From Octopus vulgaris (taxonomy: Eukaryota): a stretch of DNA of 64,000 nt. Below, piece by piece: positions 15,551-53,390 of this stretch (positions within the stretch are counted from its first letter, which is position 1; each line of letters begins with the position of its first letter). The notes beneath the pieces were generated by a model that did not search any database, was not told where the DNA came from, and was given only the letters and a program-made list of their open reading frames with translations. The position numbers were made by a program, and so were the translations under genes. Location of the stretch: NCBI GenBank assembly GCA_951406725.2, contig OX597817.1:12338001-12402000 (forward strand), written 5' to 3'.

Positions 15551-16674
15551 TATATATATATATGAGTGTGTGTGTGTGTATACATACACATACATGCATA
15601 CATGCATGCATACATATATATATATATATTGATAATTGTCGAGATCCAGTTGATCTCCCAGAAAAGCATCACTGAAACTGTCCTCGACGTCCTGAGTCAG
15701 TCCCAGGCTATAAGAGGCCAGAATAGCAATAATAACAATATTAACATCAATGACATAACAACAACAAAATAACAATAATGTGTGATTAGAGATCAGAGGG
15801 AAGAAGAAAAAAGGGATTACGAGGGGTGGGGAAGAATAGCATTTTAGAAGAGGCTGGGCTCCCCTATTATTAGTTATTTTGTCTCTTTTGTGCATCAATT
15901 ATTTTTTTGCATATCAATTATATTTTTGCTCCTTAATTATTTTTTGCACATCATTTATGTCAGCTTAAACAGCCCCTTTTCAACACATCTTACCCGTTGC
16001 TGCATAACTCCCTTATTTCTTTGACCCTACTATTTCTTCAAAAGACACTTAGGAGGTTAACAGTTAACCCCATTCGTCCTTCCCCTATGTTTTTTTTATT
16101 AATATTTCCACCTCCACCAAGGTCCGGCTTTTCTCTTCGTCCCTTCTCCATTTCCCCCCTTCAGACACTCAGCACAGCTCGCCCCTTCCTTCCCGACCTC
16201 TTCTCTCACTCACCACCACCCGTCTTTCAGCCTCCTCCGTATGTCCCGGGCCACTCATAATCACCCGCATTCACTTTACTCTCTTTTTCCCTCTTTTACT
16301 TGTTTCAGTCATTTGACTGCGGCCATGCTGGAGCACCGCCTTTTAGTCGAGCAAATCTACCCTCGGGACTTATTCTTTGTAAGCCCAGTACTTATTCTAT
16401 CGGTTCTCTTTTGCCGAACCGCTAAGCGACGGGGACGTAAACACACCAGCATCGGTTGTCAAGCAACGCTTGGGGTACAAACACAGACACACAAACACAT
16501 ACACACACACACATATATATATATACATACATACGACAGGCTTCTATCAGTTTCCGTCTACCAAATCCACTCACAAGACATTGGTCGGCCCGGGGCTATA
16601 GCAGAAGACACTTGCTCAAGATGCCACGCAGTGGGACTGAGCCCGGAACCATGTGGTTGGTTAGCAAGCTACTT

Positions 16675-18727
16675 TATTTTAATAATTTGCCACTAGGGCA
16701 GCACACAGAGTAGCTGCGGGCTGGACAAGGACATTAATGGATGATGGTGGTGGTTGATGAAGATGGTGATGGGAGAAGTCAGAAAGCGCCCGCCGACTTT
16801 TGCTTCTCTAAAACAATGTTCTTTTTTTTTTCAATAATTTACAAAATTTCAAAAATTACAAAAATTCAAAAATTTTCACAAAAGTTTCAATTTACAATTT
16901 ACACTTTTAAAAGTCTCTTCAGAGGCAATAAACCTCTGTCACAATGTAACACAATTACAATTTTACGTTACCCGACCGATGAACTCTCTTGCTTTAATGA
17001 CGCAATCGTCCATCGTCAGGCTTCCGCATACAGGTATGACTTGCAAGAGATCCTCCGGGAAAGAATTCTCGATCCTGCACATATCATTTTCGAGTAGGAC
17101 CTCCGCAGCCAGCTGCGAAGGCCACTCGGGATACTCCATGCAGGACCGAAGTCCCTCCCATTGGTTTCTCTTCCTCCTCTTACGTATTTCATTTTCTACA
17201 ATGCCTCCTTTATGGAAGAGGACTACATAAAATTTCTCCGGCATCACAACCGCCGGAGGACACATGGGAGACGCCATCTGGGTGTTACAGTCCGCTGGTG
17301 GCGTCCCGTTCCTCTTTTTCTTTTTCTTTTTACGCTGGGCCTCGGGAGGTTGAGGTTCCGGTGCTATGCGCACCGGGTCCTCTTTTTCTTCCGCAGCCTC
17401 CGGTTCCTTTGGTGGGTCGCCATTGCTCCCCACTCTTCTTTTTCTTTTGGAGGAGGATTTTTCCCCCTCCTCACATTGTTTCTCTCCCTCCATTGGTGGG
17501 GCAGGGAGAGGCTCTGATATTAACTTCTCCAGGATCCTACTCTGGTTCCTGGGGCAGTTTTTCTTAATGTGGCCGGTCTCCGAACACGGGTGACACTTGG
17601 GGGCGCGTCCCTCAAGCATCACCGGATACTTGGACCCGGCCATCTTCAGGAAGTCCGGCAAAACCAGACTCTTGGCTGACTGGGTCCACAGAGTCAAAGT
17701 AGCCTTTGCCCCTTCCAAGTCAGCCGCAGGCTGCATTCTCACGTTCAGGATCTTGGCGCTACCACCACTCAGACTCCGGCGGATGGAATCTTCCACCCAC
17801 TCGGGCTCAAAGCCGGGCGGCAGGCCGCAGACCCATAATCGTATCAATTTTTCTCCCTTATAGCTTGGGAGAAACAGAATCTCTTCGCCCTCAATGGGCT
17901 TACTCGCGAAATCGCAAGCTGCTTTAGGGGAGTCAAATAGCAACCAAATCGTTGCGTATTTGGCTCCCCGTTGAATATATTTAACGGCTGGCATATAATC
18001 TGCCAGCTCGTTCATAATGGTGGCTTTTGGGAAAACCATTATGGTATCGAGCGACCTCGAATATGTCCTCAACACCACGGTTCTGTCCTCGAGCTCCTTT
18101 AAGTACTTTTTGGGAGGTGTCAATTCCCACACAGTGAAATTCCTTGCCATAACTTAAGAAAAACAGTTCAAAATGTTACAAAATAAGTTAGACAAAGAAA
18201 GGAGAATGAAAAAAAGCAACAGAAGGGAAGAAATAAAATTAAAATGGCAGTTCAAAAAAAGTTCTTTTTTTTTACAAATGAATGATAGACGGAGAAAGAG
18301 AGTTCAAATTCAGACAAAGGAATTAATTTTTCTTTTTTTTTTTTTTGTTCACTTTTTCTGCCAAAAATTGTATTCCAGGCCAAATACACTGTTGGTGAAA
18401 CACCTTGGTAAAATAATCCTTGGTAAATCCCGTGGATAACAACGACAATTTCAAAAATAATTTTTGCAGACGTACTACGCCGCCTCAAAATAACAATTTT
18501 CTTTACACTCGACAACAGGCAGAAAAATTATATCTGGAGCAAAGTGGAGCCTTATTATCTGCTAAACAAATATTTAATGCTAAAAAACATTAATGCAAGT
18601 AATAAAACTTCACTTCGCTCGCAAAAATACAAAATTCCTACCTTTAGTCGAGTCTCAAGATTCAATATTTCACGTTGAAACAACGTGGCATCTGGAGCAG
18701 CAAAATAACACGTCCGAACAGTTCAGA
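16675..18727 (-). mobile_element. ORF1-only (HAL1-like) non-LTR retroelement, 2053 bp, inserted into a SINE
   Basis: 16-bp TSD GGTTAGCAAGCTACTT at 16659-16674 and 18728-18743; the host SINE resumes on both sides; single ORF; 3' end ATTAAAATA running into AAG of the TSD (AATAAA). Confidence 0.85.
16963..18150 (-). CDS. LINE ORF1/gag-like protein, 395 aa, CCHC zinc knuckle (CHPCSETGHIKKNC), basic tracts
   Basis: intact ATG-to-stop ORF in GC-richer sequence; CX2CX4HX4C preceded by an RRM-like region as in L1/Tx1-type ORF1. Confidence 0.85.
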   Translation of the reverse strand: MARNFTVWELTPPKKYLKELEDRTVVLRTYSRSLDTIMVFPKATIMNELADYMPAVKYIQRGAKYATIWLLFDSPKAACDFASKPIEGEEILFLPSYKGEKLIRLWVCGLPPGFEPEWVEDSIRRSLSGGSAKILNVRMQPAADLEGAKATLTLWTQSAKSLVLPDFLKMAGSKYPVMLEGRAPKCHPCSETGHIKKNCPRNQSRILEKLISEPLPAPPMEGEKQCEEGEKSSSKRKRRVGSNGDPPKEPEAAEEKEDPVRIAPEPQPPEAQRKKKKKKRNGTPPADCNTQMASPMCPPAVVMPEKFYVVLFHKGGIVENEIRKRRKRNQWEGLRSCMEYPEWPSQLAAEVLLENDMCRIENSFPEDLLQVIPVCGSLTMDDCVIKAREFIGRVT

Positions 18728-19112
18728 GGTTAGCAAGCTACTTACCACACAGCCACTCCAGCGCCTATTTCATCAGTATTTCCCCAAACGTGCTTCTGAA
18801 TCTTCAATGCTTTTTGCTTCCTCCCCTTTTCCCCGAATTATCCTACTCCCCCTTCTTTGTTGTCTTATTTATATCCTTCTTTTTCATCTTTTACTCATTC
18901 TTATGCATTTCATCCCTCCTTCCAGTTTTCCTCTTTCTTCTCCGAATTGCCTTTTTCCTTCTATTCCTATTTTCACCCCACCCCGCTCCCGAACGGCCCC
19001 TTATACTTCCAGTTTTTAACGATATACATATATAAACTATATAAACTTGTACAAGAGCAAACAACCTCCGAGATAGAAACGAGAGATGAATCATCTGGTT
19101 ATTTCGTAAAGC

Positions 19113-19548: not shown

Positions 19549-19912
19549 GGTTGGATGGAACCTACACTCGCCTCCTTATGAGAGCTCAAAATCTCTGGTG
19601 GAAGCGCCATCCAACCAAAATGCAAATATATGGGAAACTACCACCTGTGTCATCTCTTGTGAAAGGTAAGAGAGTCCAGTTTGCTGGACATTGTTGTAGA
19701 GCTGAAAAAGAGGTAATTTCTACTCTTCTCCTCTGGAAGCCATCTACTCGCAATACCAGAGGGCGCATATTCTCCTACCCTGATGTAATCTCCAGGGATA
19801 CAGGCATCCAGCAACAGGACCTCCGTAATGCCATGATGGACCGTGAAGCCTGGCGTAGCATGGTAAATTCCATTGTCTCGACCACGGTCGAACAATGGTG
19901 ATGATGATGATA
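19549..19912 (+). mobile_element. RTE-type LINE 3' fragment
   Basis: ORF 19551-19901 with FAGHC.R...LLW.P...RGR...AMMDREAW; (TGA)n tail; short ATAATGT direct repeat at the flanks. Confidence 0.8.
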
Positions 19913-51550: not shown

Positions 51551-51881
51551 AATTGAGATAGGGGTTGTAAATGCAACCCTCCATGGGATAACATATATCC
51601 AATATACTGCTAGTGAAGTACCCAATAAAGTTAATACATAAATGTTAATGATTGCGATGCAATCAATTCATTTACTGTATTATATTGGCAAAGGTAAAAT
51701 GATTTACCACAAATTATTAATACAAGATAAGAAAATGGAGAAATACATCTAAATCAAGTATCAATTACCAGATAATACTCAATCACATACTTTATTAAAC
51801 CACCACATAGGAGACTGTACCACATAAGAGACTATCTGGTAATTGATATTTGATTTAGATGTATTTCTCCATTTCTTATCT

Positions 51882-51911
<30 letters not shown>

Positions 51912-51912
<1 letters not shown>

Positions 51913-53390
51913 CTATATACTAATAATTAATGTAAGCAAATGTCTATTGTAAGCCAATGACTTACAATACCTTTATAGCCAGGATAATAAACGCAATGTT
52001 AAATAAATTTATAATGAAAAATTATCAGTAAATGAAAATTTGTATAAATATTTGACTATTGGACAATATTACAAATTTATCCAAGGGCCCGGGGTGGGGA
52101 AATGCGGGCTCCTGTGTGTGTGTGCTTATGTTTGTCATGTAGGGTATGGAGAGGGTTGGTGTCTGTAGGGAGTAGCTGGATGTAGAGTGGGTGTGAGTGG
52201 GAGCCGGGTGGGTGTGGGATGGGGGTCGTCCTTTACCATGTGTGTCTTTTTTCTCTTCTTTCATCTTTTTTCCCCGCCGTTTCCCAGCCGGTATTCACCT
52301 CCTCTTCTTCGACGCTGGTACTAGTTTTTGTCTGTGGTACCGTCTCAATCTCGTACTTCTCCCCAGCCTCCATGGGCAGTGGGATACCAACTACTTTCTC
52401 GCACTCTTGCCTTTCCTTAGCCTTCACAGTTGGTGGAGGACAATCCGCTCTAATGTGTCCTTCCAGTCCTCATTTACAGCTCCGCGGAATCCGCCCTTCC
52501 CCTCTAACTCTTAGTATCACTTCTCCGACCATAATGGTCTCCACCATGTTTTCATTATCTTCCGGGGCCACATGTACTATACTACCATGCCTAGGCTCTG
52601 CCTTTGCCAGTTCCTGTAGGGTGTTCTGGTAGCTTGCAGGACCACTACACTATCTTCCATGCCTAGCAGTATGGCAGCCACCACCAGGTTACATTTACTT
52701 CTGGGGTATGTCTTCTACCCTAACCTTGGAAGCACGTCTCCCAAAGTATACGGGTAGAAGAACCACTTCGTCAGTTTTTTCAATGGTGTTGCTGAGTGCA
52801 GTCAGGCGGTAGCTGTCTCCCGAAACTGCACCTCCACCGTTCCATGCTTTCTTCCCTTGACAAGGTAGGAAATCCCTTACCAGACTGGTCTCAGCGCCCT
52901 TTTCAACTTGGGCTGCTGACACTACTTCAATTTTTCCCGTTGCCACCGCGTATGTCCTGTTATTAATCGTCCTCTCCTCTTTTCTTTTAAAACTTCTTGG
53001 TGGCGGGGAGACCTTCACATCGTTCCCATCCCTTTTAAGTATTTCCTTGAATCTGCTCAATTCTTCCAGACTCACATCTTCACTTCTTCCTTTTGCCGCT
53101 TCAGTGTAATTTTTCGTTTCTATTTCCTCGTCGATTCTTTTTAACCATTTTACCATCTCTTCCTCAGACGGCATAAAGTCTGAAGAAGAACTTAAACCTT
53201 TGTAATTCATAACACTATGATCTCCCATTAAACAAGGGAGAAGACGCGCACACCACCGCTACGAAGACAGCTAAAAACACGTGTTACACACAAAGACAGT
53301 AGTTCAATTAACAAACTATAAACCGAAAGCTCACAATGAAGTGCTTACCCCGCACTGCGGACAGTTCTTTGGTCAGAATCCTTCCACAAC
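51912..53390 (-). mobile_element. decayed ORF1-only retroelement paralogous to 16675-18727 (ends approximate)
   Basis: frameshifted translation contains EERTINNRTYA, LLPVYFGRRASKVRVEDIP and EGRIPRSCK*GLEGHIRADCP, colinear with EDRTVVLRTYS, FLPSYKGEKLIRLWVCGLP and EGRAPKCHPCSETGHIKKNCP; flanked by (TA)n and (GATA)n. Confidence 0.7.

What the first reader, a model, noticed from the sequence alone, without database searches (positions are those of the whole stretch)
16659..18743. Intact ORF1-only (gag-like, RT-less) retroelement inserted inside a SINE with a perfect 16-bp TSD
Seen: a 2053-bp unit bounded by GGTTAGCAAGCTACTT duplications splits a family-A SINE. It has a 5' UTR of about 580 nt, one uninterrupted 395-aa ORF with a CCHC knuckle, and a 3' UTR of about 290 nt ending at an AATAAA with essentially no poly(A). 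No endonuclease or RT sequence is present. Established: LINE truncation removes the 5' end (ORF1) and keeps ORF2, so ORF1 with its own 3' end and a TSD is the architecture of HAL1-type non-autonomous elements. Inference: this is a young family that supplies its own RNA chaperone and borrows RT in trans. It is younger than the host SINE.
Basis: partly seen in the sequence, partly recalled or inferred. Interest (0 to 1): 0.8.

Follow-up and report, generated by a model that had tools for sequence, protein, structure and literature searches.

The report
Octopus jumping gene lacking reverse transcriptase
This is a 2-kb repeat, likely from an octopus, that sits inside a short repeat between two identical 16-base target copies and carries one intact gene for a predicted RNA-binding protein but no copying enzyme, so it likely spreads by borrowing the reverse transcriptase of another element, a strategy known from mammals and insects.

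Summary
Observation confirmed. A 2053-bp insert (16675-18727, minus strand) splits a tRNA-type SINE. The 16-mer found once in intact SINE copies is duplicated exactly. The insert holds one 395-codon ORF and no endonuclease or RT frame. The protein is predicted to have two RRMs, one CCHC knuckle and an unassigned C-terminal domain, a type I LINE ORF1 layout. All 13 relatives with an organism name are octopods. In four public runs the unit is multi-copy, roughly 10-25 close copies by depth ratio. Identical and 86%-alike copies also run from the ORF stop into the same 3' sequence, and high-depth contigs reach the same 3' end. A decayed relative lies at 52.2-53.1 kb with no ORF2 seen behind it. 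Best reading (0.72): an ORF1-only non-autonomous LINE family, reverse-transcribed in trans. It works like HAL1, HeT-A and Ag-Sponge but is not a mammalian HAL1. Not shown: TSDs at other copies, the RT donor, absence of ORF2-bearing relatives, selection on the ORF (P=0.06). New variant of a known kind; no cephalopod report found in ten searches.

The parts
18744..18768 (-). 5' piece of the host SINE: start of the tRNA-like head with an A-box-like motif at 18755-18745
   Evidence: SINE contigs go loose at 18767/18768
18728..18743 (.). target-site duplication, copy at the element's 5' side
16675..18727 (-). the 2053-bp ORF1-only element; no terminal direct or inverted repeats
   Evidence: multi-copy in four runs
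18151..18727 (-). 5' UTR, 577 nt, 32% GC, two upstream ATGs; internal promoter inferred, not tested
16963..18150 (-). intact 395-codon ORF, type I LINE ORF1-like protein
17860..18111 (-). predicted RRM-like domain 1 (residues 14-97)
17614..17853 (-). predicted RRM-like domain 2 (residues 100-179)
17554..17595 (-). single CCHC zinc knuckle (residues 186-199)
16969..17235 (-). C-terminal alpha/beta domain (residues 306-394) after a disordered basic linker; weakly shared with some relatives, fold unassigned
16675..16962 (-). 3' UTR, 288 nt: T-rich part, internal A10 (16822-16831), distal 147 nt with a weak hairpin (about 16688-16733); no poly(A) at the end
16659..16674 (.). target-site duplication, copy at the element's 3' side
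16281..16658 (-). rest of the host SINE (B-box-like motif at 16643-16633, body, tail); 86-93% identical to the best other copies in the window
52242..53119 (-). second, decayed member of the same ORF1 protein family (in-frame stops, frame changes), followed by an AT-rich stretch; no ORF2 seen behind it, no TSD found

Best explanation
This is one full-length copy of a multi-copy, ORF1-only element, likely of an octopod, that encodes a predicted RNA-binding protein (two RRMs and a zinc knuckle) and likely moves by target-primed reverse transcription with the endonuclease and reverse transcriptase of another LINE. Shown: the insert, the 16-bp duplication, the single intact ORF, the absence of an ORF2-sized frame, multiple copies sharing the ORF-to-3'-UTR junction and reaching the same 3' end. 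Predicted: the two RRM folds. Inferred from known LINE biology: a promoter in the 5' UTR makes a 2-kb RNA; its own ORF1 protein coats that RNA; a partner LINE's ORF2 protein nicks the target (here on the plus strand after 16674, at a TT|A step, so two T's could pair with terminal A's of the RNA), copies the RNA from its very 3' end, and a second nick 16 nt away gives the duplication. The most likely donor is an APE-bearing LINE of the L1-Tx1 group, which is active in O. vulgaris; that assignment is a guess from ORF1 type and TSD length. The lack of a copied poly(A) and the weak 3' hairpin would fit a donor that recognises the 3' tail.
For: Exact TSD and clean split of a SINE. No LTRs or terminal inverted repeats. 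Two RRMs by AlphaFold2 (blocks mostly at pLDDT 85-96 over residues 11-210), Foldseek (84 PDB matches at E<=0.001, listed rows nearly all tandem-RRM proteins) and VIA (Z 9.4, rmsd 2.4, 79 aligned; Z 9.3, rmsd 2.7, 83 aligned). RRM plus CCHC is type I LINE ORF1 and is found with Tx1 in non-mammalian animals (PMC5203782, passages); in run X3 single-copy-like contigs have depth 6-7 while a 168-nt contig identical to 16894-17061, across the stop codon, has depth 108; in X1 the unique flank has depth 47, and a contig 86% alike across 16909-17031 has depth 264; in X5 single contigs reach 764 and 468 against 49-68 for four of the other listed pieces; a 329-nt contig of a possibly-RNA run (X9) spans 16801-17130, through the stop and the A10. 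One-base insertions at 16680/16681, within 7 nt of the 3' end, stand at depths 3818 and 1316 (X1), 1583 (X5), 155 (X3), 33 (X9). All 12 indels shown (of 43) fall in the UTRs; 0 of 27 ORF substitutions shown makes a stop. A second homolog in the same 64 kb (HMM E 9e-19 and 1e-14) has no ORF2 seen behind it.
Against: No laid contig spans the whole unit. 315 joints and 1171 loose ends were not shown, so a branch into an ORF2 or flanks of other copies would have been missed. Summed contig depth is not a copy number (tool's own warning); my figures are rough ratios. No second TSD was seen: the 52-53 kb relative has none of 8 nt or more and is decayed, so it may simply be truncated. Selection is not established: 12 synonymous of 27 against 7.8 expected, P=0.06, on the best-supported rows only (40 of 234 shown). 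No poly(A) tail, which is unusual for a poly(A)-primed L1-type donor. No Pfam model ties the RRMs to any LINE clade; the link to LINE ORF1 rests on architecture and on ESM Atlas neighbours at 0.88-0.92 (CCHC proteins, ZCCHC3-like). RNA status of X9 is a guess.
Confidence: 0.72

Rival explanations
1. The unit is the 5' half of an autonomous LINE still in the genome. The 288 nt after the ORF is a long inter-ORF spacer with a premature end, and short transcripts are repeatedly inserted but do not replicate as their own lineage.
For: ORF2-bearing relatives could not be excluded: no genome, truncated joint tables, no genomic context for any protein relative. L1-Tx1 elements are abundant and recently active in O. 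vulgaris (13 families, 421 recent insertions; PMC13282606).
Against: Copies from 100% to 86% identity share the ORF-stop-to-3' sequence junction, and high-depth contigs reach the same terminus. The sequence after the stop is T/A-rich with an A10 and no ORF start, like a 3' UTR. The second relative in the window also passes from ORF1 into AT-rich sequence with no ORF2 seen.
Confidence: 0.15
2. It is a processed retrocopy of a host gene, a domesticated ORF1-like gene comparable to ZCCHC3, with no mobility of its own.
For: Relatives are annotated as host 'uncharacterized' genes in Octopus assemblies; ESM Atlas neighbours include ZCCHC3-like clusters at 0.88-0.90.
Against: Ten or more close copies plus divergent ones in each DNA run; no poly(A); the relatives are many, 17-59% identical and often truncated, as expected of mobile elements.
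Confidence: 0.07
3. It is a gag-only derivative of an LTR or tyrosine-recombinase retrotransposon, or is moved by a DNA transposase.
For: The CCHC knuckle resembles retroviral nucleocapsid knuckles; one database protein joins a 38-residue piece like the ORF's N-terminus to an integrase-like domain (P0028), likely a chimeric gene model.
Against: No terminal direct or inverted repeats; a 16-bp duplication is longer than integrase or DDE transposase duplications (recalled); two RRMs before the knuckle are a LINE ORF1 layout.
Confidence: 0.03

Closest known systems
HAL1 (half-L1) of mammals
   Same: Non-autonomous, encodes only ORF1p, needs ORF2p in trans, arose several times (PMC5753468 and PMC3627910, passages). 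Same layout: 5' UTR, one ORF1, own 3' end, TSD.
   Different: HAL1 derives from mammalian L1, whose ORF1 is the coiled-coil/RRM/CTD Transposase_22 type. This ORF has two RRMs and a CCHC, no Transposase_22 hit, no poly(A), and is from an octopod.
HeT-A and other ORF1-only telomeric elements of Drosophila (Jockey clade)
   Same: Gag-like ORF1 only, depends on another family's ORF2; ORF1-only lineages can give rise to new ORF1-only families (bioRxiv 10.1101/2025.06.09.658640, passages).
   Different: Those are telomeric head-to-tail arrays; this is a dispersed interstitial copy with a TSD.
Ag-Sponge (CR1-derived, Anopheles)
   Same: Listed with HeT-A and HAL1 as ORF1-present non-autonomous LINEs (PMC5786205, passage).
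   Different: CR1 clade, mosquito; sequence not compared here.
Type I ORF1p of Tx1/L1-group LINEs; ZCCHC3-like proteins
   Same: RRM(s) plus CCHC knuckle; ESM Atlas neighbours with RBD_ZCCHC3 domains.
   Different: No Pfam RBD_ZCCHC3 hit in the query or 25 relatives; no ORF2; extra C-terminal domain without a usable match.

Membership tests
ORF1-present non-autonomous LINE (the class of HAL1, HeT-A, Ag-Sponge) | Encodes an ORF1-type protein | tested here: met
   two RRM folds plus CCHC; type I ORF1 definition
ORF1-present non-autonomous LINE (the class of HAL1, HeT-A, Ag-Sponge) | No ORF2 (endonuclease/RT) in the element | tested here: met
   no other frame above 175 codons in the insert; no convincing motif
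ORF1-present non-autonomous LINE (the class of HAL1, HeT-A, Ag-Sponge) | Insertion marks of target-primed reverse transcription (TSD, no LTR or TIR) | tested here: met
   for this one copy
ORF1-present non-autonomous LINE (the class of HAL1, HeT-A, Ag-Sponge) | Replicates as a multi-copy family in the ORF1-only form | tested here: inconclusive
   multi-copy, shared ORF-3'UTR junction and 3' end, but no full second copy or second TSD seen; tables truncated
ORF1-present non-autonomous LINE (the class of HAL1, HeT-A, Ag-Sponge) | An autonomous partner LINE with related ends supplies ORF2p | not testable with these tools
   no genome held; no loci for relatives
HAL1 proper | ORF1p of mammalian L1 type (Transposase_22) | tested here: not met
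   Pfam scan at E<=1 gives only zf-CCHC; none in 26 aligned members; model has two RRMs and a knuckle
HAL1 proper | Derived from an L1-clade element by loss of ORF2 | not testable with these tools
   clade is defined by RT, which is absent; no parent found
HeT-A | Telomeric head-to-tail arrays | tested here: not met
   single interstitial copy inside a SINE with a TSD; other copies' places unknown
Tx1-clade derivative | Type I ORF1 (RRM + CCHC) | tested here: met
   this type also occurs in other clades
Tx1-clade derivative | ORF1 or 3' tail groups with a known Tx1 element | not testable with these tools
   no Repbase/Dfam library; no ORF2-linked relative retrieved
Processed retrocopy of a host gene | poly(A) tail before the TSD | tested here: not met
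   no terminal A-run; only an internal A10
Processed retrocopy of a host gene | Intron-containing single-copy parent | not testable with these tools
   no genome held

The most novel reading that the evidence does not exclude
The whole octopod RRM-RRM-CCHC protein family (dozens of lineages at 20-30% identity, in Octopus and Argonauta) is an old ORF1-only clade of retroelements that has diversified without any ORF2 of its own and parasitises the reverse transcriptase of an unrelated LINE through its 3' tail, perhaps one that has no ORF1 itself, such as the single-ORF RTE elements of octopus.
Probability: 0.2. Interest if true: 0.72.

Novelty: new variant of a known kind. Interest (0 to 1): 0.48.

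Why it matters
ORF1-only LINE derivatives are described from three clades: L1 in mammals, Jockey in Drosophila, CR1 in mosquito (PMC5786205). A dispersed family with an intact type I ORF1 in octopods would add a fourth, independent case in a phylum where my searches found none. It would also explain a set of 'uncharacterized CCHC' gene models in Octopus annotations as mobile elements that RT-based classifiers miss. An intact, full-length copy with exact ends is a ready test of an open point: whether ORF1p is needed in cis for trans-mobilisation. The strategy itself is known, so this widens its range rather than adding a new mechanism.

Tried and rejected
No genome is held, so no genome-wide copy count. 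Searches for longer, ORF1-ORF2-fused relatives found none. This is not evidence: one search covered 794-2265 aa yet missed P0027 (801 aa) and P0032 (861 aa), which score 2e-50 and 1e-59 with the same profile, and ORF1 and ORF2 are normally separate proteins. Pfam on 32 of the 49 hits showed no APE or RT domain, weak for the same reason. Locus searches in metagenome and viral contigs found no relative. No listed holder run is on record as RNA. The C-terminal domain folded alone reached only pLDDT 49.5, so I did not run a fold search on it; ESM Atlas gave no usable hit. The viral structure library gave generic RRM proteins. Rfam: three sub-threshold matches; ARAGORN: none. Folding four end segments: only the last 86 nt stood out (z -2.2, 4 of 200 shuffles; the others z -0.3 to -0.7), weak and chosen after the fact. 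The 3' ends of the two window relatives share no match above 9 nt. Target specificity for the SINE head was considered: this SINE family covers 8% of the window, so chance is enough. My C-terminal motif printout had wrong offsets; I use only the alignment for that motif. Bao and Jurka 2010 is not held; HAL1 statements come from papers that cite it.
Full report
Observation. It is part of a common SINE: four other window positions hold it once, and in an alignment with five uninterrupted copies the left flank follows the SINE up to the 16-mer and the right flank resumes it from the 16-mer. So one 16-mer became two when the insert arrived, and the insert is younger than this SINE copy. The SINE reads on the minus strand, head at about 18768; the insert lies between its A-box-like and B-box-like motifs and in the same orientation (box patterns recalled). 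The family covers 8% of the window, so landing in it needs no targeting.

Anatomy. On the minus strand the insert has a 577-nt 5' UTR, an ORF of 395 codons (18150-16963) and 288 nt to the end. No other stop-free frame exceeds 175 codons. A six-frame pattern scan of the window for APE and RT motifs gave four isolated, unconvincing hits, none in the insert. There are no terminal direct or inverted repeats. The 3' part is T-rich, has an A10 at 16822-16831 and goes on for 147 nt. There is no poly(A); the final AATAAA is four bases of insert and two of the duplication. The last 86 nt fold into a weak hairpin (z -2.2).

The protein. Pfam sees only a sub-threshold zinc knuckle. The closest relative is an Octopus sinensis gene model, 59% identical over 68% of the query. 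A full HMMER scan gave 49 hits at E<=0.001, 8 at 1e-10; about six are unrelated multi-knuckle proteins. Of 29 distinct hits looked up, 13 carry an organism name: 12 Octopus (three species) and 1 Argonauta. The window is therefore likely octopod. With 25 relatives as alignment, AlphaFold2 gives two confident alpha/beta domains (residues 14-97, 100-179), the knuckle, a disordered linker and a C-terminal alpha/beta domain (mean pLDDT 77, pTM 0.48). Foldseek and VIA match the first two domains to RRMs. RRM plus CCHC is type I LINE ORF1p, seen with Tx1 in non-mammalian animals, as against the Transposase_22 type of mammalian L1 (PMC5203782, passages). The C-terminal domain is weakly shared with several relatives, which suggests the ORF is complete; its fold stays unassigned.

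Is it a family? No assembly is held. Twenty public runs hold the stretch or part of it, five at half of its words or more, in nine studies. I laid four of them. All 30 bins have depth in X1, 29 in X5 and X3, 27 in X9, and the element interior is covered in all four. Depth is not a copy number, but ratios are telling. In X3, two contigs have depth 6-7 (single-copy-like), while a contig identical to 16894-17061 has 108. In X1 the unique right flank has 47 and element contigs reach 264 and 354. In X5 contigs reach 468 and 764. This points to roughly 10-25 close copies plus divergent ones. The junction from ORF stop into the 3' sequence is bridged by that identical X3 contig, by an X1 contig 86% alike, and by a 329-nt X9 contig that runs through the A10 to 16801. 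One-base insertions 6-7 nt from the 3' end stand at depths 3818 and 1316 (X1), 1583 (X5), 155 (X3) and 33 (X9), close to or above the depth at 16884 (577, 1145, 151, 20). So the distal 147 nt is likely the family's end and not a one-off transduction. Against over-reading: SINE contigs swamped the output, 315 joints, 1171 loose ends, 194 substitutions and 31 indels were not shown, no contig spans the unit, and neither a branch into ORF2 nor other copies' flanks could be seen. Whether this insertion is present in those individuals is also not visible.

Age and selection. The best run holds 0.55 of the sampled words, about 2% divergence by my arithmetic, and several window letters differ from all or nearly all laid depth in all four runs. 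The copy is recent enough to keep its frame and a perfect duplication, but the family spans at least 14% divergence. Of the 27 ORF substitutions shown, 12 are synonymous, 15 change a residue, none makes a stop; 7.8 synonymous were expected without selection, P=0.06. The 12 indels shown cluster at five sites, all in UTRs, which also hold the homopolymer runs. This leans towards a maintained ORF but does not establish it.

A second relative. A profile of the family finds a decayed homolog at 53119-52242, minus strand (E 9e-19 and 1e-14). It has stops and frame changes, passes into AT-rich sequence, and shows no ORF2 in the 2.2 kb read downstream. No duplication of 8 nt or more was found at its likely ends and its 3' sequence is unlike the first element's. 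It fits an ORF1-only habit of the wider family but could be a truncated copy.

Mechanism. Shown: structure, duplication, copies. Inferred: transcription from the 5' UTR, coating of the RNA by its own ORF1 protein, and copying by a partner LINE's ORF2 protein. The first nick would lie on the plus strand after 16674, at a TT|A step that resembles the L1 endonuclease preference (recalled), with two bases of possible pairing to the RNA end; a second nick 16 nt away gives the duplication. L1-Tx1 is my first guess for the donor: 13 families with 421 recent insertions are reported in O. vulgaris (PMC13282606, part 1 of 3 read). The missing poly(A) argues against a purely poly(A)-primed donor and leaves RTE, CR1 or others open. 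Confidence in the non-autonomous-family reading 0.72; rivals are premature-end copies of an autonomous LINE (0.15), host retrocopy (0.07), LTR or DNA element (0.03).

Comparison with known systems. Kojima lists HeT-A (Jockey), HAL1 (L1) and Ag-Sponge (CR1) as non-autonomous LINEs that keep ORF1 (PMC5786205, passages). HAL1 arose several times in mammals (PMC5753468, passages) and kept its ORF for 29-44 Myr in guinea pig (PMC3627910, passages). In Drosophila telomeric elements ORF2 was lost dozens of times (bioRxiv 10.1101/2025.06.09.658640, passages). This element works like these but fails the HAL1 test on ORF1 type and the HeT-A test on location. Ten library searches (listings seen) returned no cephalopod or mollusc ORF1-only family. 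The O. vulgaris repeat paper has no 'HAL1', 'ORF1', 'gag' or 'non-autonomous' in its text or its one listed supplement (one supplement store gave no answer). The octopus brain LINE paper has no 'HAL1', 'Tx1' or 'CCHC' and describes single-ORF RTE elements (PMC9115989, passages). I also saw passages of PMC4494074 and PMC8967140. Repbase, Dfam, deposited octopus repeat libraries and subscription journals could not be searched, and the family may be filed there. Earlier notes of this scan report look-alike ORF1-only elements in other genomes, mostly fungi; these are unchecked and only suggest that the strategy recurs.

Verdict. A real, cleanly bounded element; new variant of a known kind; interest 0.48. 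The boldest reading not excluded is an old octopod ORF1-only clade that uses an unrelated LINE's enzyme (probability 0.2, interest 0.72).

Noticed in passing
window 18684-18699 and 16613-16628: Bases 29-44 of the element's 5' UTR are 15/16 complementary to the host SINE 31-46 nt past the insertion point; 2 of 200 shuffles of the element gave such a match to the SINE. Found after the fact; may be chance, an old SINE scrap, or a pairing that bears on site choice.
   Followed up: partly
window 52242-53119, minus strand: Decayed second member of the same ORF1 family, starting just after a (TCTA)n microsatellite and ending near (TA)n; no ORF2 seen, no TSD found.
   Followed up: partly
window 16822-16831: Internal A10 ending the T-rich part of the 3' UTR; may be an older 3' end to which the distal 147 nt was added early in the family's history.
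   Followed up: partly
window 51715-51891: Long inverted repeat, arms of 42 nt at 98% (about 62 nt with the outer arm), 58 nt apart, next to the decayed relative; MITE-like.
   Followed up: no
proteins P0004, P0006, P0011, P0013: Several unnamed relatives come from contigs of only 1.7-2.2 kb, the size an ORF1-only transcript would have; short contigs are also the norm in those collections.
   Followed up: no
window 19578-19901, plus strand: A 107-codon frame whose translation reads like the C-terminal end of an RTE-type LINE ORF (resemblance recalled, not tested).
   Followed up: no
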